From assembly GCF_017348835.2 (NCBI RefSeq), contig NZ_CP071375.1: a stretch of 64,000 nt of DNA. One strand, given 5' to 3'. Under the pieces are notes generated by a model. The model searched no databases. It was not told the origin of the DNA and saw only the letters and a program-made list of their open reading frames with translations. The DNA is from Escherichia coli. GTDB taxonomy: Bacteria; Pseudomonadota; Gammaproteobacteria; Enterobacterales; Enterobacteriaceae. Shown one piece after another: positions 7,105 to 63,297 of the stretch. Both the position numbers and the translations under genes were made by a program. How positions within the stretch are numbered: the first letter of the stretch is position 1; each line of letters opens with the position of its first letter.

Positions 7105-7179
7105 TGGCTGGGGTACGAGGATTCGAACCTCGGAATGCCGGAATCAGAATCCGGTGCCTTACCGCTTGGCGATACCCCA
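7105..7179 (-). tRNA. glnX: tRNA-Gln (anticodon CUG)
   Basis: 75-nt sequence whose reverse complement reads TGGGGTATCGCC...CCAGCCA; anticodon loop uuCUGau. Confidence 0.95.
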
Positions 7180-7216
7180 ACTGGGTGCACTTACAAGGTA
7201 AGCGTCTTGAATAAAT

Positions 7217-7291
7217 TGGCTGGGGTACGAGGATTCGAACCTCGGAATGCCGGAATCAGAATCCGGTGCCTTACCGCTTGGCGATACCCCA
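7217..7291 (-). tRNA. glnV: tRNA-Gln (anticodon CUG)
   Basis: Identical 75-nt copy of the preceding tRNA-Gln(CUG). Confidence 0.95.
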
Positions 7292-7339
7292 ACAAATTGG
7301 TTTTTGAATTTGCCGAACATATTCGACACATTCAGAATT

Positions 7340-7416
7340 TGGTGGCTACGACGGGATTCGAACCTGTGACCCCATCATTATGAGTGATGTGCTCTAACCA
7401 ACTGAGCTACGTAGCC
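7340..7416 (-). tRNA. metU: tRNA-Met (elongator, anticodon CAU)
   Basis: 77-nt sequence, reverse complement GGCTACGTAGCTCAGTTGGTTAGAGC...CCACCA; anticodon loop cuCAUaa. Confidence 0.95.
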
Positions 7417-7431
7417 AGATTGTTTCTTCGA

Positions 7432-7506
7432 TGGCTGGGGTACCTGGATTCGAACCAGGGAATGCCGGTATCAAAAACCGGTGCCTTACCGCTTGGCGAT
7501 ACCCCA
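7432..7506 (-). tRNA. glnW: tRNA-Gln (anticodon UUG)
   Basis: 75-nt tRNA-Gln with anticodon loop uuUUGau. Confidence 0.95.
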
Positions 7507-7540
7507 ATAACCGGGCGGTGAACCGCTTACTCGAAGAAGA

Positions 7541-7615
7541 TGGCTGGGGTACCTGGATTCGAACCAGGGAATGCCGGTATCAAAAACCGGTGCCTTACCG
7601 CTTGGCGATACCCCA
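7541..7615 (-). tRNA. glnU: tRNA-Gln (anticodon UUG)
   Basis: Identical 75-nt copy of the preceding tRNA-Gln(UUG). Confidence 0.95.
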
Positions 7616-7638
7616 TCCGTACAACGCTTTCTGGTGAA

Positions 7639-7723
7639 TGGTGCGGGAGGCGAGACTTGAACTCGCACACCTTGCGGCGCCAGAACCTAAATCTGGTGCG
7701 TCTACCAATTTCGCCACTCCCGC
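7639..7723 (-). tRNA. leuW: tRNA-Leu (anticodon UAG)
   Basis: 85-nt class II tRNA with a long variable arm; reverse complement GCGGGAGTGGCGAAATTGGTAGACGCACCAGATTTAGGTTCTGG...CACCA. Confidence 0.93.
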
Positions 7724-7731
7724 AAAAAAGA

Positions 7732-7808
7732 TGGTGGCTACGACGGGATTCGAACCTGTGACCCCATCATTATGAGTGATGTGCTCTAACCAACTGAGCT
7801 ACGTAGCC
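7732..7808 (-). tRNA. metT: tRNA-Met (elongator, anticodon CAU)
   Basis: 77-nt sequence identical to metU; first gene of the operon. Confidence 0.95.
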
Positions 7809-10098: not shown

Positions 10099-10198
10099 TG
10101 CCGGATGCGGCGTGAACGCCTTATTCGGCCTACAAAAGCATGAAAATTCAATAAATTGCAGGAGCTGCGTAGGCCTGATAAGCGTAGCGCATCAGGCA
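10099..10198. repeat. BIME / RIP-like element (two inverted REPs with a conserved linker)
   Basis: REP tgccggatgcggcgtgaacgccttattcggcctac and inverted REP gtaggcctgataagcgtagcgcatcaggca separated by a linker containing aattcaataaattgcagga. Confidence 0.75.
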
Positions 10199-10248: not shown

Positions 10249-11001
10249 TCAGATAACGTCGATTTCAGCGACCGATGGGTAAATCCAGCTGGGGCGGAAC
10301 GGCATACTGTCGATATCGTCGAGCGATGAAACACCAGAGAGCACCAGAATCGTCTCCAGACCTGCCTGGAAGCCGGCCAGAATATCGGTACGCAGGTTAT
10401 CGCCGACAATCACCGTTTCTTCCGAATGTGCCTGCATTTTGTTTAATGCCGCGCGGATAATCCACGGACTCGGCTTACCAACATAGAACGGTTTACGCCC
10501 GGAGATTTTTTCGATCCCTGCACACAACGCGCCACAGGCGGGATAAAAACCGCGCCCGTGGGTGTCCGGGTTGGTGGCGATAAAACGTGCACCGTTAGCG
10601 ACGAAATAGGCCGCTTTATGCATCATGTCCCAGTTGTAGGAACGCGTTTCGCCAACAATCACAAAATCAGGGTTCACATCGGTAATAGTGAAACCGGCTT
10701 TGTACAGTTCATGAATCAGTGCGCCTTCGCCCACCACATACGCTTTCTTGCCTTCCTGGCGACGCAGGAAATCGGCGGTCGCCATCGCAGAGGTATAAAA
10801 CACGCTGTCAGGTACATCGACACCGGCAGTGGCAAAGCGGTTCGCCAGATCCTGCCCGGTCTGCGAAGGATAGTTGGTCAGCAACACCAGCGGCAGGCCT
10901 TTATCCATAATCCCGTGCAAAAATTCCGCTGCACCCGGTACGGCGACGTTATCGTGCATCAGCACGCCGTCGATATCGCAAATTACATTTTTAATGGTCA
11001 T
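10249..11001 (-). CDS. nagD: UMP phosphatase NagD/UmpH (HAD superfamily)
   Basis: 250-aa ORF with HAD motif I DIDGVL; last gene of the nagBACD operon. Confidence 0.93.
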   Translation of the reverse strand: MTIKNVICDIDGVLMHDNVAVPGAAEFLHGIMDKGLPLVLLTNYPSQTGQDLANRFATAGVDVPDSVFYTSAMATADFLRRQEGKKAYVVGEGALIHELYKAGFTITDVNPDFVIVGETRSYNWDMMHKAAYFVANGARFIATNPDTHGRGFYPACGALCAGIEKISGRKPFYVGKPSPWIIRAALNKMQAHSEETVIVGDNLRTDILAGFQAGLETILVLSGVSSLDDIDSMPFRPSWIYPSVAEIDVI

Positions 11002-11048: not shown

Positions 11049-12269
11049 TTAATTTTCCAGCAAATGCTGGAGCAAAATACCGTTGAGCATGGCGCGTTTT
11101 ACCAGCGCAAAAGCGCCGATTGCCGAGCGGTGATCCAGCTCAGAACGTACCACCGGCAGATTAGTACGAAACGCCTTCAGCGCCTGGGTATTAATGCAGC
11201 TTTCAATAGCAGGGAGCAGCACTTTATCGGCTTCGGTGATTTCACCGGCAATAACAATTTTTTGCGGATTAAATAAGTTGATAGCAATGGCGATGGTTTT
11301 GCCCAGATGACGACCGACATACTCAATCACTTCCGAGGCCAGGCTATCGCCTTTGTTCGCGGCTTTGCAGATAGTTTTGATGGTGCAGTCGTCCAGCGGC
11401 ACGCGGCTCTGGTAGCCCTGCTTTAACAGATTCAACACCCGTTGTTCAATGGCAGCGTTGGCGGCGATAGTTTCCAGGCAGCCAAAGTTGCCGCAGTGGC
11501 AGCGTTCACCCAGCGGTTCGACCTGAATATGGCCAATTTCACCGACGTTGCCGTTGCGGCCAATAAAAATGCGCCCGTTAGAGATAATCCCGGCCCCGGT
11601 TCCGCGATGGACACGCACCAGAATGGAGTCTTCGCAATCCTGACTTGCACCGAAGTAGTGCTCTGCCAGCGCCAGACTACGGATATCGTGGCCGACAAAA
11701 CAGGTCACTTTAAAACGCTCTTCCAGTGCTTCTACCAGCCCCCAGTTTTCCACCTGAATATGCGGCATGTAATGAATTTTGCCGCTGTCCGGGTCAACAA
11801 GTCCAGGCAGGATCACGGAAATGGCGATCAGCTCGCGCAGCTTGCGTTGGTAGCTATCAATAAACTGAGCAATGGCATTCAGCAGGGCATGTTCCAGCGT
11901 CTGCTGGGTACGTTCCGGCAGCGGGTAATGTTCTTCTGCCAGCACTTTGCTGCTGAGATCAAACAGAGTGATGGTGGCGTCATGACGACCAAGCCGTACG
12001 CCGATTGCGTGGAAATTGCGGGTTTCGGTGACGATAGAGATAGCGCGGCGGCCCCCGGTGGAGGCCTGCTGATCAACTTCTTTGATCAGCCCGCGTTCGA
12101 TAAGCTGACGCGTAATTTTGGTTACGCTGGCGGGGGCAAGCTGGCTTTGCTCGGCAATCTGAATCCGCGAGATTGGCCCGTACTGGTCAATCAGGCGATA
12201 AACCGCCGCGCTGTTAAGCTGTTTTACGAGATCAACATTACCTATCTGAGCTTGTCCGCCTGGTGTCAT
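11049..12269 (-). CDS. nagC: N-acetylglucosamine repressor NagC (ROK family)
   Basis: 406-aa ORF with an N-terminal HTH and a ROK sugar-kinase-like domain carrying a CxCGxxGC zinc motif. Confidence 0.95.
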   Translation of the reverse strand: MTPGGQAQIGNVDLVKQLNSAAVYRLIDQYGPISRIQIAEQSQLAPASVTKITRQLIERGLIKEVDQQASTGGRRAISIVTETRNFHAIGVRLGRHDATITLFDLSSKVLAEEHYPLPERTQQTLEHALLNAIAQFIDSYQRKLRELIAISVILPGLVDPDSGKIHYMPHIQVENWGLVEALEERFKVTCFVGHDIRSLALAEHYFGASQDCEDSILVRVHRGTGAGIISNGRIFIGRNGNVGEIGHIQVEPLGERCHCGNFGCLETIAANAAIEQRVLNLLKQGYQSRVPLDDCTIKTICKAANKGDSLASEVIEYVGRHLGKTIAIAINLFNPQKIVIAGEITEADKVLLPAIESCINTQALKAFRTNLPVVRSELDHRSAIGAFALVKRAMLNGILLQHLLEN

Positions 12270-12277
12270 ACTTTCTC

Positions 12278-14286
<2,009 letters not shown>

Positions 14287-14440
14287 TATTCACCTCAATA
14301 AGTAAAATGTAAGCCGTTGGCGGATTAGGCATCTTTAAGCGTAACCTGGATTTGCGCAGACAGGCGTCAATCCGACCTGATTTTTTGAATGATAAAATAA
14401 GTTTTCTGGTTTAGCCAGTAAAAGGGAGTGATGATAACGA

Positions 14441-14466
14441 TATTTGGTGACAAAACTCACAAAAGA
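14441..14466. promoter_or_regulatory. probable CRP site in the divergent nagB-nagE control region
   Basis: GGTGAcaaaacTCACA matches the TGTGA-N6-TCACA consensus. Confidence 0.5.
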
Positions 14467-14472
14467 CACGCA

Positions 14473-14497
14473 TTTAATTTGCGATACGAATTAAATT
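14473..14497. promoter_or_regulatory. probable NagC operator
   Basis: AT-rich palindrome tttaatttgcgatacgaattaaatt next to the CRP-like site between nagB and nagE. Confidence 0.45.
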
Positions 14498-14618
14498 TTC
14501 ACACACTCTGTAGCAGATGATCTAACAATCTGATTACAGAACATCGGCAGTAAAATTTGCAGCAAAATAAAAATACGGCTTTAAACGAGCCAAATAGGGT
14601 TCTCGTAGGGGGAATAAG

Positions 14619-16565
14619 ATGAATATTTTAGGTTTTTTCCAGCGACTCGGTAGGGCGTTACAGCTCCCTATCGCGGTGCTGCCGGTGGCGGCACTGTTGC
14701 TGCGATTCGGTCAGCCAGATTTACTTAACGTTGCGTTTATTGCCCAGGCGGGCGGTGCGATTTTTGATAACCTCGCATTAATCTTCGCCATCGGTGTGGC
14801 ATCCAGCTGGTCGAAAGACAGCGCAGGTGCGGCGGCGCTGGCGGGTGCGGTAGGTTACTTTGTGTTAACCAAAGCGATGGTGACCATCAACCCAGAAATT
14901 AACATGGGTGTACTGGCGGGTATCATTACCGGTCTGGTTGGTGGCGCAGCCTATAACCGTTGGTCCGATATTAAACTGCCGGACTTCCTGAGCTTCTTCG
15001 GCGGCAAACGCTTTGTGCCGATCGCCACCGGCTTCTTCTGCCTGGTGCTGGCGGCCATTTTTGGTTACGTCTGGCCGCCGGTACAGCACGCTATCCATGC
15101 AGGCGGCGAGTGGATCGTTTCTGCAGGCGCGCTGGGTTCCGGTATCTTTGGTTTCATCAACCGTCTGCTGATCCCAACCGGTCTGCATCAGGTACTGAAC
15201 ACCATCGCCTGGTTCCAGATTGGTGAATTCACCAACGCGGCGGGTACGGTTTTCCACGGTGACATCAACCGCTTCTATGCCGGTGACGGCACCGCGGGGA
15301 TGTTCATGTCCGGCTTCTTCCCGATCATGATGTTCGGTCTGCCGGGTGCGGCGCTGGCGATGTACTTCGCAGCACCGAAAGAGCGTCGTCCGATGGTTGG
15401 CGGGATGCTGCTTTCTGTTGCTGTTACTGCGTTCCTGACCGGTGTGACTGAGCCGCTGGAATTCCTGTTCATGTTCCTTGCTCCGCTGCTGTACCTCCTG
15501 CACGCACTGCTGACCGGTATCAGCCTGTTTGTGGCAACGCTGCTGGGTATCCATGCCGGCTTCTCTTTCTCTGCGGGGGCTATCGACTACGCGTTGATGT
15601 ATAACCTGCCGGCCGCCAGCCAGAACGTCTGGATGCTGCTGGTGATGGGCGTTATCTTCTTCGCTATCTACTTCGTGGTGTTCAGTTTGGTTATCCGCAT
15701 GTTCAACCTGAAAACGCCGGGTCGTGAAGATAAAGAAGACGAGATCGTTACTGAAGAAGCCAACAGCAACACTGAAGAAGGTCTCAATCAACTGGCGACC
15801 AACTATATTGCTGCGGTTGGCGGCACTGACAACCTGAAAGCAATTGACGCCTGTATCACCCGTCTGCGCCTTACAGTGGCTGACTCTGCCCGCGTTAACG
15901 ATACGATGTGTAAACGTCTGGGTGCTTCTGGTGTAGTAAAACTGAACAAACAGACTATTCAGGTGATTGTTGGCGCGAAAGCAGAATCCATCGGCGATGC
16001 GATGAAGAAAGTCGTTGCCCGTGGCCCGGTAGCAGCTGCCTCTGCTGAAGCAACTCCGGCAACTGCCGCTCCTGTAGCAAAACCGCAGGCTGTACCAAAC
16101 GCGGTATCTATCGCGGAGCTGGTATCGCCGATTACCGGTGATGTCGTGGCACTGGATCAGGTTCCTGACGAAGCATTCGCCAGCAAAGCGGTGGGTGACG
16201 GTGTGGCGGTGAAACCGACAGATAAAATCGTCGTATCACCAGCCGCAGGGACAATCGTGAAAATCTTCAACACCAACCACGCGTTCTGTCTGGAAACCGA
16301 AAAAGGCGCGGAGATTGTCGTTCACATGGGTATCGACACCGTAGCGCTGGAAGGTAAAGGCTTTAAACGTCTGGTGGAAGAGGGCGCGCAGGTAAGCGCA
16401 GGGCAACCGATTCTGGAAATGGATCTGGATTACCTGAACGCTAACGCCCGTTCGATGATTAGCCCGGTGGTTTGCAGCAATATCGACGATTTCAGTGGCT
16501 TGATCATTAAAGCTCAGGGCCATGTTGTGGCGGGTCAAACACCGCTGTATGAAATCAAAAAGTAA
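14619..16565 (+). CDS. nagE: PTS N-acetylglucosamine-specific EIICBA component
   Basis: 648-aa ORF with a polytopic EIIC domain, EIIB (CITRLR) and a C-terminal EIIA; recognised as NagE. Confidence 0.95.
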   Translation: MNILGFFQRLGRALQLPIAVLPVAALLLRFGQPDLLNVAFIAQAGGAIFDNLALIFAIGVASSWSKDSAGAAALAGAVGYFVLTKAMVTINPEINMGVLAGIITGLVGGAAYNRWSDIKLPDFLSFFGGKRFVPIATGFFCLVLAAIFGYVWPPVQHAIHAGGEWIVSAGALGSGIFGFINRLLIPTGLHQVLNTIAWFQIGEFTNAAGTVFHGDINRFYAGDGTAGMFMSGFFPIMMFGLPGAALAMYFAAPKERRPMVGGMLLSVAVTAFLTGVTEPLEFLFMFLAPLLYLLHALLTGISLFVATLLGIHAGFSFSAGAIDYALMYNLPAASQNVWMLLVMGVIFFAIYFVVFSLVIRMFNLKTPGREDKEDEIVTEEANSNTEEGLNQLATNYIAAVGGTDNLKAIDACITRLRLTVADSARVNDTMCKRLGASGVVKLNKQTIQVIVGAKAESIGDAMKKVVARGPVAAASAEATPATAAPVAKPQAVPNAVSIAELVSPITGDVVALDQVPDEAFASKAVGDGVAVKPTDKIVVSPAAGTIVKIFNTNHAFCLETEKGAEIVVHMGIDTVALEGKGFKRLVEEGAQVSAGQPILEMDLDYLNANARSMISPVVCSNIDDFSGLIIKAQGHVVAGQTPLYEIKK

Positions 16566-16767: not shown

Positions 16768-18432
16768 ATGAGTGAGGCAGAAGCCCGCCCGACTAACTTT
16801 ATCCGTCAGATCATCGATGAAGATCTGGCCAGTGGTAAGCACACCACAGTACACACCCGTTTCCCGCCGGAGCCGAATGGCTATCTGCATATTGGCCATG
16901 CGAAATCTATCTGCCTGAACTTCGGGATCGCCCAGGACTATAAAGGCCAGTGCAACCTGCGTTTCGACGACACTAACCCGGTAAAAGAAGATATCGAGTA
17001 TGTTGAGTCGATCAAAAACGACGTAGAGTGGTTAGGTTTTCACTGGTCTGGTAACGTCCGTTACTCCTCCGATTATTTTGATCAGCTTCACGCATATGCG
17101 ATCGAACTGATCAATAAAGGCCTGGCGTACGTTGATGAACTGACGCCGGAACAGATCCGCGAATACCGCGGCACCCTGACACAGCCGGGTAAAAACAGCC
17201 CGTACCGCGACCGCAGCGTTGAAGAGAACCTGGCGCTGTTCGAGAAAATGCGTACCGGCGGTTTTGAAGAAGGTAAAGCCTGCCTGCGTGCGAAAATCGA
17301 CATGGCGTCGCCATTTATCGTAATGCGCGATCCGGTGCTGTACCGCATTAAATTTGCTGAACACCACCAGACTGGCAACAAGTGGTGCATCTACCCGATG
17401 TACGACTTCACCCATTGCATCAGCGATGCGCTGGAAGGTATTACGCACTCTCTGTGTACGCTTGAGTTCCAGGACAACCGTCGCCTGTACGACTGGGTAC
17501 TGGACAACATCACCATTCCTGTTCACCCGCGCCAATACGAATTCTCGCGCCTGAATCTGGAATACACTGTGATGTCCAAGCGTAAGCTGAACCTGCTGGT
17601 GACCGACAAGCACGTTGAAGGCTGGGATGACCCGCGTATGCCGACCATTTCCGGTCTGCGTCGTCGTGGTTACACTGCGGCTTCTATTCGTGAGTTCTGC
17701 AAACGCATCGGCGTGACCAAGCAGGACAACACCATTGAGATGGCGTCGCTGGAATCCTGCATCCGTGAAGATCTCAACGAAAATGCGCCGCGCGCAATGG
17801 CGGTTATCGATCCGGTGAAACTGGTTATCGAAAACTATCAGGGCGAAGGCGAAATGGTCACCATGCCGAACCATCCGAACAAACCGGAAATGGGGAGCCG
17901 TCAGGTGCCGTTTAGCGGTGAGATTTGGATCGATCGCGCCGATTTCCGCGAAGAAGCTAACAAGCAGTACAAACGTCTGGTGCTGGGTAAAGAAGTGCGT
18001 CTGCGTAATGCTTACGTCATTAAGGCTGAACGCGTGGAGAAAGATGCCGAAGGTAATATCACCACCATCTTCTGTACTTATGACGCCGACACCTTAAGCA
18101 AGGATCCGGCAGATGGTCGTAAAGTGAAAGGCGTTATTCACTGGGTAAGCGCGGCACATGCGCTGCCGGTTGAAATCCGCCTGTACGATCGTCTGTTCAG
18201 TGTGCCGAATCCAGGCGCTGCGGATGATTTCCTGTCGGTGATTAACCAGGATTCTCTGGTCATTAAACAGGGCTTTGCTGAACCGTCTCTGAAAGATGCG
18301 GTGGCAGGTAAAGCATTCCAGTTTGAGCGTGAAGGTTACTTCTGCCTCGATAGCCGCCATTCTACGGCGGAAAAACCGGTATTTAACCGCACCGTTGGGC
18401 TGCGTGATACCTGGGCGAAAGTAGGCGAGTAA
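16768..18432 (+). CDS. glnS: glutaminyl-tRNA synthetase
   Basis: 554-aa class I aaRS with HIGH (HIGHAKS) and KMSKS-like (VMSKR) motifs. Confidence 0.97.
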
Positions 18433-18657: not shown

Positions 18658-19010
18658 TGCTTTTCTTCGCGAATTAATTCCGCTTCGCAATTTATCCATA
18701 AAATAAATTTAAAATCACGAAACATAATTAAATAAAATGTAACCGCTTTCATCTTGCTGGAATTTCACGCTTTTATTCTTCTGCAAGCCTTTCAACGGCA
18801 AACTTAAGCCTTGTAACAAAAATCATCAAAATATGTGCGGTTGCTCATGTTCTTACATTCTGGTTACAGAAAGAGATTGATAATTCGCGTCGCGAAAAAT
18901 AGTCTGTTCCTGTAGTCAGCGAGACTTTTCTCAACGCTACTTTTTTAATTTTTATTTTTTTCGCTGTTCACCTTTGGTGCAGCAATTTATACGTCAAAGA
19001 GGATTAACCC

Positions 19011-25919: not shown

Positions 25920-26600
25920 CAAATGCGCCTATAAGGCTCTCTTACCAGCCGCGCCCTAACAGGCGCACACGATCTGACATTTGCATCCAACTTCGTTACT
26001 TACGGCCCGTAAACGGGCTGCCCGGATAGGGAATCGATAACTGCTCTACCATTTTATCCTCTTCAAGCTGGTGCTTTATGTAATCCTGTATCTTCGCCGT
26101 GTTCTTACCCACTGTATCGACGTAGTACCCTCTGCACCAGAACTCCCTGTTCCTGTATTTGAATTTCAAATCACCAAACTGCTCGTAAAGCATCAGACTG
26201 CTTTTCCCTTCCAGATATCCCATAAAGCCGGATACGCTCATTTTGGGCGGGATCTCCACAAGCATATGGATATGATCTGCACAGCATTCAGCTTCCAGAA
26301 TCCGTACACTTTTCCACTCACACAGCTTTCTCAAAATACTGCCTATTGCTCTACGCTTCTCTCTGTAGAACACCTGTCTTCGATATTTTGGCGCAAAAAC
26401 TATGTGATATTTACAGTTCCATCGGGTGTGCGCTAAGCTCTTTTCGTTCCCCATTGGGACCCCCTTTTGATTTCTTGTTTGACACTTGCAGTTGCCAGAC
26501 CGCAAGGTGTTTTAACAAATCAAAAGGGGTTTTAATAACTGGCTCAAAGCTGAAAGCTTTCCGGAACCCCCAGCCTAGCTGGGGGTTTTCTGTGCACAAG
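25920..26600 (-). mobile_element. IS200 insertion sequence (IS200/IS605 family); ends approximate
   Basis: Contains a 152-aa HuH tyrosine transposase and the characteristic IS200 5' leader hairpins; boundaries estimated to about +/-30 bp from the flanking pgm and potE terminators. Confidence 0.8.
25996..26454 (-). CDS. tnpA: IS200 transposase TnpA (HuH Y1 transposase)
   Basis: 152 aa from ATG 26454 (MGNEKSLAHTRWNCKYHIVFAPKYRR...) with HuH motif HIHML and catalytic Tyr in RGYYVDTVG; near-identical to the Salmonella IS200 TnpA from memory. Confidence 0.9.
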   Translation of the reverse strand: MGNEKSLAHTRWNCKYHIVFAPKYRRQVFYREKRRAIGSILRKLCEWKSVRILEAECCADHIHMLVEIPPKMSVSGFMGYLEGKSSLMLYEQFGDLKFKYRNREFWCRGYYVDTVGKNTAKIQDYIKHQLEEDKMVEQLSIPYPGSPFTGRK

Positions 26601-41309: not shown

Positions 41310-41417
41310 TGCCGGATGCGGCGTGAACGCCTTATCCAGCCTACAAATTTGTGCAAATTCAATAAATTGCAGGAAATACGTAGGCCTGATAAGACGCGTC
41401 AAGCGTCGCATCAGGCA
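41310..41417. repeat. BIME / RIP-like element (two inverted REPs with a conserved linker)
   Basis: REP tgccggatgcggcgtgaacgccttatccagcctac and inverted REP gtaggcctgataagacgcgtcaagcgtcgcatcaggca separated by a linker containing aattcaataaattgcagga, as at 10099-10198. Confidence 0.75.
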
Positions 41418-54824: not shown

Positions 54825-55532
54825 TTAAGGTCTCCTTAGCGCCTTATTGCGTAAGACTGCCGGAACTTAAATTTGCCTTCGCACATCAACCTGGCTTTAC
54901 CCGTTTGTTATTTGGCTCGCCGCTCTGTGAAAGAGGGGAAAACCTGGGTACAGAGCTCTGGGCGCTTGCAGGTAAAGGATCCATTGATGACGAATAAATG
55001 GCGAATCAAGTACTTAGCAATCCGAATTATTAAACTTGTCTACCACTAATAACTGTCCCGAATGAATTGGTCAATACTTCCACACTGTTACATAAGTTAA
55101 TCTTAGGTGAAATACCGACTTCATAACTTTTACGCATTATATGCTTTTCCTGGTAATGTTTGTAACAACTTTGTTGAATGATTGTCAAATCAGATGATTA
55201 AAAATTAAATAAATGTTGTTATCGTGACCTGGATCACTGTTCAGGATAAAACCCGACAAACTATATGTAGGTTAATTGTAATGATTTTGTGAACGGCCTA
55301 TACTGCCGCCAGGTCTCCGGAACACCCTGCAATCCCGAGCCACCCAGCGTTGTAACGTGTCGTTTTCGCATCTGGAAGCAGTGTTTTGCATGACGCGCAG
55401 TTATAGAAAGGACGCTGTCTGACCCGCAAGCAGACCGGAGGAAGGAAATCCCGACGTCTCCAGGTAACAGAAAGTTAACCTCTGTGCCCGTAGTCCCCAG
55501 GGAATAATAAGAACAGCATGTGGGCGTTATTC

Positions 55533-55922
55533 ATGATAAGAAATGTGAAAAAACAAAGACCTGTTAATCTGGACCTACAGACCATCCGGTTCCCCATCAC
55601 GGCGATAGCGTCCATTCTCCATCGCGTTTCCGGTGTGATCACCTTTGTTGCAGTGGGTATCCTGCTGTGGCTTCTGGGTACCAGCCTCTCTTCCCCTGAA
55701 GGTTTCGAGCAAGCTTCCGCGATTATGGGCAGCTTCTTCGTCAAATTTATCATGTGGGGCATCCTTACCGCTCTGGCGTATCACGTCGTCGTAGGTATTC
55801 GCCACATGATGATGGATTTTGGCTATCTGGAAGAAACATTCGAAGCGGGTAAACGCTCCGCCAAAATCTCCTTTGTTATTACTGTCGTGCTTTCACTTCT
55901 CGCAGGAGTCCTCGTATGGTAA
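55533..55922 (+). CDS. sdhC: succinate dehydrogenase cytochrome b556 subunit
   Basis: 129 aa from ATG 55533 ([15 protein letters not shown]). Confidence 0.93.
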
Positions 55923-58762: not shown

Positions 58763-58885
58763 CCGTAGGCCTGATAAGACGCGCAAGCGTCGCATCAGGC
58801 AACCAGTGCCGGATGCGGCGTGAACGCCTTATCCGGCCTACAAGTCATTACCCGTAGGCCTGATAAGCGCAGCGCATCAGGCGTA
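58763..58885. repeat. BIME cluster (three REP units)
   Basis: Three alternating REP palindromes between sdhB and the sucA promoter region. Confidence 0.75.
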
Positions 58886-63114: not shown

Positions 63115-63297
63115 ACTGTAGACCGGATAAGACATTATCGCCTTCTCCGGCAATTGAAGCCTGATGCGACGCTTAACGCGTCTTATCAGGCCTACGGGAA
63201 GCACCGATGTAGGTCGGATAAGGCGCTCGCGCCGCATCCGACAAGCGATGCCAGATGCGACGCTTACACGTCTTATCAGGCCTACGGGTGACCGACA
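63115..63297. repeat. BIME cluster (several REP units)
   Basis: REP palindromes gcctgatgcgacgcttaacgcgtcttatcaggcctac, gtaggtcggataaggcgctcgcgccgcatccgac and gccagatgcgacgcttacacgtcttatcaggcctac in the sucB-sucC spacer. Confidence 0.75.

What the first reader, a model, noticed from the sequence alone, without database searches (positions are those of the whole stretch)
14441..14497. CRP-like and NagC-like sites side by side in the divergent nagB-nagE control region
GGTGAcaaaacTCACA (14446-14461) matches the CRP consensus, and the adjacent AT-rich palindrome tttaatttgcgatacgaattaaatt (14473-14497) resembles a NagC operator. This is the expected arrangement for repression of both divergent promoters; positions are assigned by eye and are approximate.
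Basis: partly seen in the sequence, partly recalled or inferred. Interest (0 to 1): 0.15.

Follow-up and report, generated by a model that had tools for sequence, protein, structure and literature searches.

The report
Known nagE–nagB CRP and NagC sites

Summary
The window is E. coli nagDCAB / nagE. The 332-bp spacer (14287-14618) differs from K-12 at four bases, none inside a site.

- **CRP site.** GGTGACAAAACTCACA (14446-14461) is letter for letter the CRP box that RegulonDB places at -61.5 of nagE and -70.5 of nagBACD. It also lies under a genomic-SELEX CRP peak.
- **nagE-side operator.** The palindrome contains the published 23-bp nagE NagC operator TTTAATTTGCGATACGAATTAAA (14473-14495).
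The stronger nagB-side operator lies at 14379-14401, 94 bp (about 9 helical turns) away. Published work shows the nagE operator alone does not repress; NagC must bind both operators and loop the DNA. The palindrome is also listed as a second CRP site (core 14480-14495).
- **Statistics.** A NagC matrix built only from sites elsewhere in the genome ranks the window's three known operators 1, 2 and 3 of 63,978 positions. The CRP core alone is not above chance at 64-kb scale (1 found, 1.8 expected).
- **Conservation.** In 61 of 79 species both operators are kept 93-94 bp apart. In 54 of these a CRP core sits at the same fixed offset, with a variable spacer.

Verdict: already known, low interest.

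The parts
14443..14464 (.). CRP (CAP) site, 22-mer TTTGGTGACAAAACTCACAAAA. The core is 14446-14461 and the centre is 14453.5, which is -61.5 of nagE and -70.5 of nagBACD.
   Evidence: The sequence is identical to the RegulonDB entry and to the SELEX CRP box in Shimada 2011 Table S4 and file 4. It is the only hit with at most 1 mismatch to the core in the window. Its CRP-matrix score is 12.4, rank 4 in the window. The half-sites are near-invariant and the spacer is variable across 51 species.
14473..14495 (+). nagE-side NagC operator, TTTAATTTGCGATACGAATTAAA, centred at 14484. That is -31 of the inferred nagE start, so it covers the -35 hexamer. It is a weak, Mlc/NagC-hybrid operator with A/T base pairs at +/-11.
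   Evidence: It is an exact match to the published operator (FITBAR Table 1; mapped). It ranks 2nd of 63,978 positions with the NagC matrix. It is the only inverted repeat found in the spacer. TT at -6/-5 and AA at +5/+6 are invariant in 51 of 51 species. Its properties are described in PMC4288165.
14379..14401 (-). nagB-side NagC operator, CTTATTTTATCATTCAAAAAATC on the - strand, centred at 14390. That is -7 of the inferred nagB start.
   Evidence: It is an exact match to the published operator. It ranks 3rd in the window with the NagC matrix. It lies 94 bp from the nagE-side operator, a spacing kept in 51 species (93 bp in 10 more). G/C at +/-11 is kept in 43 and 49 of 51 species.
14480..14495 (.). 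Second CRP site listed in RegulonDB, core TGCGATACGAATTAAA (22-mer 14477-14498), at -27.5 of nagE and -104.5 of nagB. It lies inside the nagE-side NagC operator.
   Evidence: It is listed in Shimada 2011 Table S4. It is the top CRP-matrix hit of the whole window, score 13.55. That paper says the role of the multiple CRP sites at nagBACD-nagE is not established.
14479..14515 (+). nagE promoter, inferred: -35 TTGCGA (14479-14484), 17-bp spacer, -10 CACACT (14502-14507), start at A14515, 104-nt leader.
   Evidence: The start is back-calculated from the RegulonDB CRP positions -61.5 and -27.5, which agree with each other. I picked the hexamers by eye. The generic promoter scan did not call them, which is not surprising for an activator-dependent promoter.
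14383..14417 (-). nagB promoter, inferred: -35 TGGCTA (14417-14412), 17-bp spacer, -10 TATCAT (14394-14389), start at 14383, 97-nt leader.
   Evidence: The start is back-calculated from the RegulonDB CRP positions -70.5 and -104.5. The block T.GC.AG at 14412-14418 is conserved across 51 species. The -10 lies inside the nagB-side operator.
13486..14286 (-). nagB, glucosamine-6-phosphate deaminase, first gene of nagBACD.
   Evidence: NCBIfam equivalog NF001685, 627 bits.
14619..16565 (+). nagE, the GlcNAc-specific PTS IIABC transporter.
   Evidence: NCBIfam equivalog NF007608, 1449 bits.
11049..12269 (-). nagC, the repressor that binds the two operators, encoded in the regulated operon.
   Evidence: NCBIfam equivalog NF047937 (TransRegNagC), 719 bits.

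Best explanation
The flagged segment is the right-hand two-thirds of the classical three-site control region of the divergent E. coli nagE and nagBACD operons.

**Activation.** cAMP-CRP binds the 22-bp site centred at 14453.5. From that single position it activates both outward-facing promoters: it sits at -61.5 for nagE (a class I distance) and at -70.5 for nagB.

**Repression.** NagC binds two 23-bp operators. The weak one (14473-14495) covers the nagE -35 region. The strong one (14379-14401) covers the nagB -10 and start. Their centres are 94 bp apart, about 9 helical turns, so they lie on the same face of the helix. NagC molecules bound at both interact and loop out the DNA between them, which includes the CRP site. 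Both promoters are shut at once.

**Induction.** GlcNAc-6-phosphate, made when NagE imports GlcNAc, releases NagC and opens the loop.

**Status of each step.**
- Shown here: the identity of all three sites with the published sequences, their matrix scores, their geometry, and their conservation.
- Taken from the literature: binding, looping, the inducer, and the inability of the nagE operator to repress alone.
- Inferred: the exact promoter hexamers, the transcription starts, and the idea that the CRP-induced bend is in phase with the loop. The CRP centre is 2.9 turns from one operator and 6.05 turns from the other.
For: **Locus identity.** Genes. The spacer is 100% identical to E. coli genomes and is present in 5,424 of 5,426 complete genomes. 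It has 4 SNPs against K-12, all outside the sites.

**Site identity.** The published NagC operators of nagE and nagB map exactly to 14473-14495 and 14379-14401. The FITBAR genome coordinates agree with the window offset. The CRP box is identical to the RegulonDB site at -61.5/-70.5 and to the SELEX peak box at 703002.

**Independent matrix test.** A NagC matrix trained on 7 operators outside the window ranks the chiP, nagE and nagB operators 1, 2 and 3 of 63,978 positions.

**Conservation.** In 61 of 79 species from one genome-collection scan, the two best NagC-matrix hits upstream of nagB are 93-94 bp apart. In 54 of those 61, a CRP core with at most 2 mismatches sits exactly 30.5 bp from the nagE-side operator centre. 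Information content per column peaks on the three sites (means 1.49, 1.33 and 1.55 bits) against 0.14-0.62 between and beyond them. The CRP half-sites average 1.72 and 1.84 bits, against 0.70 for the 6-bp spacer.

[quoted passage not shown] Two sites are needed at nagE-B (PMC5401889). GlcNAc-6-P is the signal (PMC10634360).
Against: - Nothing contradicts the model.
- The original footprinting papers (Plumbridge & Kolb 1991, 1993, 1998; Plumbridge 2001) are not held in the library. Site positions therefore come second-hand through the RegulonDB table in Shimada 2011 and through FITBAR Table 1.
- The CRP core and the CRP matrix score are not above chance at 64-kb scale.
- The generic promoter scan did not find the inferred promoters.
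- PMC4288165 describes the nagE operator as '-11A,+11T'. The + strand here reads T at 14473 and A at 14495. These are A/T pairs either way, but the wording does not match literally.
Confidence: 0.95

Rival explanations
1. The AT-rich palindrome acts mainly as a second CRP site, centred at 14487.5 (-27.5 of nagE), rather than as a NagC operator. From that position CRP would occlude or modulate the nagE promoter.
For: RegulonDB lists it as a CRP site with 'dual' mode. It is the best CRP-matrix hit in the whole 64-kb window, score 13.55. Its left half-site, TGCGA, keeps the critical G.
Against: - Its right half-site is TTAAA, lacking both C's of TCACA.
- The conservation pattern is symmetric about 14484, the NagC centre, not about 14487.5. 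The invariant TTTAATT at 14473-14479 lies outside the CRP core.
- TT/AA at +/-5,6 of the NagC frame are invariant in 51 of 51 species.
- The CRP matrix is AT-biased and discriminates poorly; the maximum score in shuffled 64-kb windows averages 12.1.
- The two roles are not mutually exclusive. The source states that the role of the multiple CRP sites here is not established.
Confidence: 0.15
2. The palindrome is an Mlc operator. nagE would then be controlled by the glucose-responsive paralogue Mlc rather than by NagC.
For: It has A/T at +/-11, the hallmark of Mlc sites. The literature calls it a hybrid Mlc/NagC site. A/T at +/-11 is kept in 49 and 51 of 51 species.
Against: [quoted passage not shown] It also reports that, with the nagB operator present, the site is preferentially regulated by NagC. 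The partner operator 94 bp away carries the NagC-type G/C at +/-11, and nagC is encoded in the regulated operon.
Confidence: 0.04
3. One or both motifs are chance matches in an AT-rich spacer.
For: The CRP core with at most 1 mismatch is expected 1.8 times per 64 kb by chance. The CRP matrix score is reached by 37.5% of shuffled 64-kb windows.
Against: The motifs are identical to experimentally derived sites. Their position, spacing and half-site sequence are conserved across Enterobacterales, Aeromonas and several Vibrionaceae, while flanking and spacer bases drift.
Confidence: 0.01

Closest known systems
E. coli K-12 nagE-nagBACD regulatory region (Plumbridge & Kolb), as recorded in RegulonDB
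   Same: It is the same locus. All three sites are identical in sequence and spacing. The CRP centre is at -61.5/-70.5 and the operators are 94 bp apart.
   Different: Only four SNPs in the 332-bp spacer: 14433, 14472, 14553 and 14582. The one at 14472 (A here, G in K-12) lies at position -12, just outside the nagE operator, and lengthens the perfect palindrome arm from 7 to 8 nt.
Other two-operator NagC systems (chbB, glmUS, fimB) and the single-site targets galP and chiP
   Same: They share the 23-bp quasi-palindrome with invariant TT/AA at +/-5,6, and in most cases cooperative binding to two separated sites.
   Different: At nagE-B the two operators each cover one of two divergent promoters, with the shared CRP site inside the loop. 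At glmUS NagC activates. galP and LEE1 use one site.
Repression loops with an internal architectural protein, such as gal (GalR with HU) and deo/cdd-type CRP-CytR regions. This comparison rests on general knowledge and was not tested here.
   Same: A short loop of about 9-11 helical turns forms between two operators, with a DNA-bending protein site between them.
   Different: Here the internal protein is the activator CRP itself, and the repressor belongs to the ROK family.
Mlc operators (for example ptsG)
   Same: The sequence logo is almost indistinguishable, and the nagE operator shares the Mlc-type A/T at +/-11.
   Different: It is regulated by NagC in vivo through cooperation with the nagB operator.

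Membership tests
cAMP-CRP (CAP) binding site | A 16-bp core TGTGA-N6-TCACA within a 22-bp two-fold symmetric site. | tested here: met
   GGTGA-CAAAAC-TCACA matches 9 of 10 core positions. The flanks TTT and AAA are symmetric.
cAMP-CRP (CAP) binding site | A match stronger than expected by chance. | tested here: inconclusive
   One hit was found against 1.8 expected per 64 kb. The matrix score of 12.4 is reached by 37.5% of shuffled 64-kb windows but by only 2.3% of shuffled 332-bp spacers.
cAMP-CRP (CAP) binding site | Identity with a site recorded as bound by or regulated by CRP. | tested here: met
   The sequence is identical to the RegulonDB site (nagE -61.5, nagBACD -70.5) and to the box under the genomic-SELEX peak at 703002. 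nagB and nagE are listed among the known targets recovered by SELEX.
cAMP-CRP (CAP) binding site | Half-sites conserved and central spacer free to vary in orthologous regions. | tested here: met
   GTGA is kept in 50 of 51 species. In TCACA the first four columns are kept in 50-51 of 51 and the last in 44 of 51. The six spacer columns are mixed. The offset to the operator is fixed in 54 of 61 species.
cAMP-CRP (CAP) binding site | Direct binding of cAMP-CRP and activation of the promoters. | not testable with these tools
   This comes from the literature only (Plumbridge 1990; Plumbridge & Kolb 1991, cited). Those papers are not held in the library.
NagC operator (ROK-family NagC/Mlc 23-bp operator) | A 23-bp quasi-palindrome with TT at -6,-5 and AA at +5,+6. 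| tested here: met
   With the centre at 14484, TT is at 14478-14479 and AA at 14489-14490. The same holds for the nagB-side operator centred at 14390.
NagC operator (ROK-family NagC/Mlc 23-bp operator) | Identity with a published operator. | tested here: met
   There are exact matches to the nagE and nagB entries of FITBAR Table 1, which was compiled from El Qaidi & Plumbridge 2008 and from J. Plumbridge.
NagC operator (ROK-family NagC/Mlc 23-bp operator) | A high score with a matrix trained on independent NagC sites. | tested here: met
   The operators rank 2nd (nagE side) and 3rd (nagB side) of 63,978 positions. Their scores are reached by 0.16% and 0.94% of shuffled spacers.
NagC operator (ROK-family NagC/Mlc 23-bp operator) | C or G at +/-11, the mark of high-affinity NagC-specific sites. 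| tested here: not met
   The nagE-side operator has T and A at +/-11. This is the documented peculiarity of this weak, hybrid operator and is not grounds for exclusion. The nagB-side operator has G at both positions.
NagC operator (ROK-family NagC/Mlc 23-bp operator) | A partner operator placed for cooperative looping. | tested here: met
   The partner is at 14379-14401, 94 bp centre to centre, or 8.95 turns. The spacing is kept at 94 bp in 51 species and 93 bp in 10.
NagC operator (ROK-family NagC/Mlc 23-bp operator) | Binding by NagC and release by GlcNAc-6-P. | not testable with these tools
   This comes from the literature.
Mlc operator | A or T at +/-11. | tested here: met
   T14473 and A14495. 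A/T is conserved in 49 and 51 of 51 species.
Mlc operator | Repression by Mlc at physiological levels. | not testable with these tools
   The literature reports no cross-regulation in vivo and a preference for NagC when the nagB operator is present.

The most novel reading that the evidence does not exclude
The most novel reading my evidence leaves open is that this architecture is under much tighter selection than 'two operators plus an activator site' implies. Four observations point that way.

1. Across Enterobacterales, Aeromonas and several Vibrionaceae, the operator spacing (94 bp) and the CRP offsets (30.5 and 63.5 bp) are fixed to the base.
2. The weak (A/T at +/-11) versus strong (G/C at +/-11) operator asymmetry is kept.
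3. In 58 of 61 loci the first base of the left CRP half-site is G or A (GGTGA 44, AGTGA 9, 5 other variants); no locus has consensus TGTGA, counting the two register-shifted loci whose true core is also GGTGA.
4. The whole cassette is retained even where nagE has been replaced by a class only about 38% identical in its first 120 residues.

Together these would suggest that CRP acts as an obligatory architectural part of the repression loop, and that its affinity is deliberately held below optimum.

At least part of this is probably already covered by published comparative-genomics work on the NagC regulon (for example Yang et al. 2006, cited), which I could not read.
Probability: 0.12. Interest if true: 0.3.

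Novelty: already known. Interest (0 to 1): 0.08.

Why it matters
For annotation, it fixes three regulatory sites and two promoters of the nag regulon in this window to the base. It also corrects the picture from 'two sites' to 'three sites and a loop'.

Scientifically it adds little. The system has been a model for loop-mediated repression of divergent promoters since the early 1990s.

The cross-species comparison made here is a clean illustration that the published geometry is functionally constrained: the 94-bp spacing, the fixed CRP phase, and the weak/strong operator asymmetry are all kept.

Tried and rejected
- **Original papers.** I tried to read the primary footprinting papers (PMC29661, PMC147383, PMC2446801, PMC177988). 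None is held. The supplement of PMC4288165 is not held either. I used the FITBAR operator table and the RegulonDB/SELEX tables of Shimada 2011 instead.
- **Promoter scan.** The generic sigma-70 scan found only a CTTACA-17-AATAAT match on the - strand whose -10 overlaps the nagB ATG. I rejected it as the nagB promoter. It did not call the real, activator-dependent promoters.
- **Terminator-like hairpin.** The hairpin at 14592-14576 (- strand) is at chance level, 1 found against 0.5 expected, and I did not pursue it.
- **CRP matrix.** The matrix from 125 RegulonDB sites discriminates poorly. It is AT-biased and some training sites are mis-registered. I used it only as weak evidence.
- **RNA families.** The Rfam scan found no RNA family in the spacer, so a riboswitch or sRNA reading was dropped.
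- **Two reviews.** PMC2704942 and PMC4545359 were searched for statements about CAP and the loop and gave nothing useful.

Full report
**What the locus is.** The ORFs around the finding are the following:

| Gene | Coordinates | Strand |
|---|---|---|
| nagD | 10249-11001 | - |
| nagC | 11049-12269 | - |
| nagA | 12278-13426 | - |
| nagB | 13486-14286 | - |
| nagE | 14619-16565 | + |
| glnS | 16768-18432 | + |

All hit their NCBIfam equivalog models far above cut-off. The 332-bp nagB-nagE spacer (14287-14618) is 100% identical to some E. coli genomes. It is present in 5,424 of 5,426 complete E. coli genomes. Against K-12 MG1655 it differs at four bases: 14433, 14472, 14553 and 14582. A window position equals the U00096.2 coordinate minus 688,548.

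**The observation.** GGTGACAAAACTCACA (14446-14461) matches TGTGA-N6-TCACA at 9 of 10 positions. It is the only hit with at most 1 mismatch in the window. However, 1.8 such hits are expected by chance in 64 kb, so the core by itself proves nothing at that scale. The palindrome is the only inverted repeat found in the spacer (seed 6, arms at most 30 nt apart), with 8-nt perfect arms at 14472-14479 and 14489-14496.

**Identity with published sites.**
- FITBAR Table 1 (PMC3098098) lists known NagC operators compiled from El Qaidi & Plumbridge 2008 and from J. Plumbridge. The list includes nagE TTTAATTTGCGATACGAATTAAA and nagB CTTATTTTATCATTCAAAAAATC.
- These match the window exactly at 14473-14495 (+) and 14379-14401 (-). 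The ybfM/chiP operator matches at 18879-18901. The genome coordinates in that paper (703020/703043 and 702949) agree with the offset.
- Table S4 of Shimada et al. 2011 (PMC3105977) reproduces the RegulonDB CRP sites. TTTGGTGACAAAACTCACAAAA is listed at -61.5 of nagE and -70.5 of nagBACD.
- The same table lists a second site, ATTTGCGATACGAATTAAATTT, at -27.5 of nagE and -104.5 of nagBACD.
- Their genomic-SELEX table places a CRP peak in the nagBACD/nagE spacer, with the box GGTGACAAAACTCACA at 703002. That coordinate corresponds to window position 14453.5.
- The four RegulonDB positions are mutually consistent. They put the nagE start at A14515 and the nagB start at 14383 on the - strand.

**Matrix tests.**
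- I built a palindrome-symmetrised NagC matrix from the seven operators of that table that lie outside the window. It ranks chiP, nagE and nagB 1st, 2nd and 3rd of 63,978 positions. The nagE and nagB scores are reached by 0.16% and 0.94% of shuffled spacers.
- A CRP matrix from 125 RegulonDB sites, excluding the nag sites, is much less discriminating.
- The -61.5 site scores 12.4, rank 4. That score is reached by 37.5% of shuffled 64-kb windows and by 2.3% of shuffled spacers.
- The top CRP hit of the whole window is the -27.5 site inside the NagC operator, at 13.55.

**Phylogenetic footprint.**
- One scan of the species-representative genome collection with NagB returned 80 loci, ranging from Escherichia to Vibrio, Aeromonas and Pasteurellaceae.
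- In 61 of the 79 loci with enough upstream DNA, the two best NagC-matrix hits upstream of nagB are 94 bp (51 loci) or 93 bp (10 loci) apart.
- At the fixed offset of 30.5 bp from the nagE-side operator centre, 46 of the 61 have a CRP core with exactly 1 mismatch and 8 have 2 mismatches.
- In an ungapped alignment of the 51 loci with 94-bp spacing, information content peaks on exactly the three sites:

| Region | Mean information (bits per column) |
|---|---|
| nagB-side operator | 1.49 |
| CRP 22-mer | 1.33 |
| nagE-side operator | 1.55 |
| Between and beyond the sites | 0.14-0.62 |
| CRP left half-site | 1.72 |
| CRP right half-site | 1.84 |
| CRP 6-bp spacer | 0.70 |

- A fourth conserved block, T.GC.AG at 14412-14418, coincides with the -35 hexamer I infer for nagB.
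- TT/AA at +/-5,6 are invariant in both operators in 51 of 51 species.
- The nagE-side operator keeps A/T at -11 (49 of 51) and at +11 (51 of 51). The nagB-side operator keeps G/C at -11 (43 of 51) and at +11 (49 of 51).

**How it works.** PMC4288165 states four things:
- NagC and Mlc sites are quasi-palindromes whose only invariant positions are TT/AA at +/-5,6.
- High-affinity NagC sites carry C/G at +/-11.
[quoted passage not shown] PMC5401889 lists nagE-B among the operons that need two NagC sites and looping. PMC10634360 gives GlcNAc-6-P as the signal that lifts repression.

Combining these with the geometry measured here gives the model:
- CRP at 14453.5 activates both divergent promoters.
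- NagC on O_E (centre -31 of nagE, over the -35) and on O_B (centre -7 of nagB, over the -10 and start) forms a 94-bp loop of 8.95 turns that encloses the CRP site.
- The CRP centre lies 2.9 turns from O_E and 6.05 turns from O_B. All three proteins are therefore on roughly one face of the helix.

I infer from that phasing that the CRP bend favours the loop. I recall this as the conclusion of Plumbridge & Kolb 1998, but I could not read that paper.

Without it the flagged pair does not repress.
- CRP is the activator here, not part of 'repression'.
- One literal mismatch remains. PMC4288165 says '-11A,+11T' for the nagE operator, whereas the + strand reads T14473 and A14495. These are A/T pairs in either case.

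**Rivals.**
- A purely CRP reading of the palindrome is unlikely. Its right half-site is TTAAA, and its conservation is symmetric about the NagC centre. A secondary CRP role is not excluded, and Shimada et al. say the roles of the multiple CRP sites here are not established.
- An Mlc reading is contradicted by the published in vivo specificity.
- Chance is excluded by the conservation.
- Rfam finds no RNA family in the spacer.

**Novelty.** The feature is already known, and interest is low.

Noticed in passing
window 18879-18901 (+) and 18918-18933 (-): The published ybfM/chiP NagC operator GATAATTCGCGTCGCGAAAAATA is the top NagC-matrix hit of the whole window. The genomic-SELEX CRP box TGAGAAAAGTCTCGCT, reported for the glnS/ybfM spacer, lies about 35 bp (centre to centre) to its right. 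K-12 annotation also places the sRNA chiZ just upstream of chiP.
   Followed up: partly
L003, L008 and about 40 other loci, upstream of nagB (locus coordinates about 740-1180, - strand): Two deeply divergent classes of the divergent transporter gene sit behind the same conserved control region. One is E. coli-type NagE, more than 86% identical over the first 120 residues. The other is only about 38% identical and starts VSILGYLQKVG. Both hit the NagE IIBC model TIGR01998 above cut-off. The classes alternate even within Enterobacter (L007 against L008). One record labelled E. coli (L003) has the second class next to a 100%-identical nagB.
   Followed up: partly
window 14446; loci L002-L081 at the equivalent column: In 58 of 61 loci the first base of the left CRP half-site is G or A (GGTGA 44, AGTGA 9, 5 other variants); no locus has consensus TGTGA, counting the two register-shifted loci whose true core is also GGTGA. 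The deviation from consensus is conserved, possibly holding CRP affinity below optimum.
   Followed up: no
window 14472: This strain has A where K-12 has G, at position -12 just outside the nagE operator. The change extends the perfect palindrome arms from 7 to 8 nt. Across species this column is variable: T 30, G 13, A 6, C 2.
   Followed up: yes
window 55223-55238 and 55525-55547: The RegulonDB gltA/sdhC CRP site CGTGACCTGGATCACT is in the window. About 300 bp away is the 4th-best NagC-matrix hit, CGTTATTCATGATAAGAAATGTG, score 15.0. That score is within the range of shuffled windows (mean of maxima 12.9, sd 2.1), so it is probably chance.
   Followed up: no
window, between about 19000 and 55000: The offset between window and K-12 (U00096.2) coordinates is 688,548 at nag and chiP. 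At the gltA/sdhC CRP site it is about 10.3 kb larger: K-12 coordinate 754098 against the 743778 that the nag offset predicts. This strain therefore lacks roughly 10 kb that K-12 carries in between.
   Followed up: no
window 7108-7808 (-), 26464-26587 (-), 58768-58838 (-), 63212-63282 (+), 41345-41387 (+), 10134-10176 (+): Rfam gathering-threshold hits are a cluster of seven tRNA genes, STnc490, two naRNA4 copies and two ES036 copies. One ES036 copy lies just downstream of nagD.
   Followed up: no
window 14576-14592 (- strand): A weak terminator-like hairpin (5-bp stem, then a T-run) lies on the strand opposite the nagE leader. On the + strand the same GGCT...AGCC hairpin lies in the inferred nagE 5' UTR. 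It is at chance level, 1 found against 0.5 expected.
   Followed up: no
loci L041, L044, L046, L048, L053, L055, L063, L065, L067 and others (mostly Vibrio): In most Vibrio species nagB keeps one strong NagC-type site about 50 bp upstream of its ATG (for example ATTAATTCGCATTATAAAATAAG). It has no partner at 94 bp, no CRP core at the fixed offset and no divergent nagE. The three-site cassette is therefore tied to the nagE-nagB divergent arrangement.
   Followed up: no
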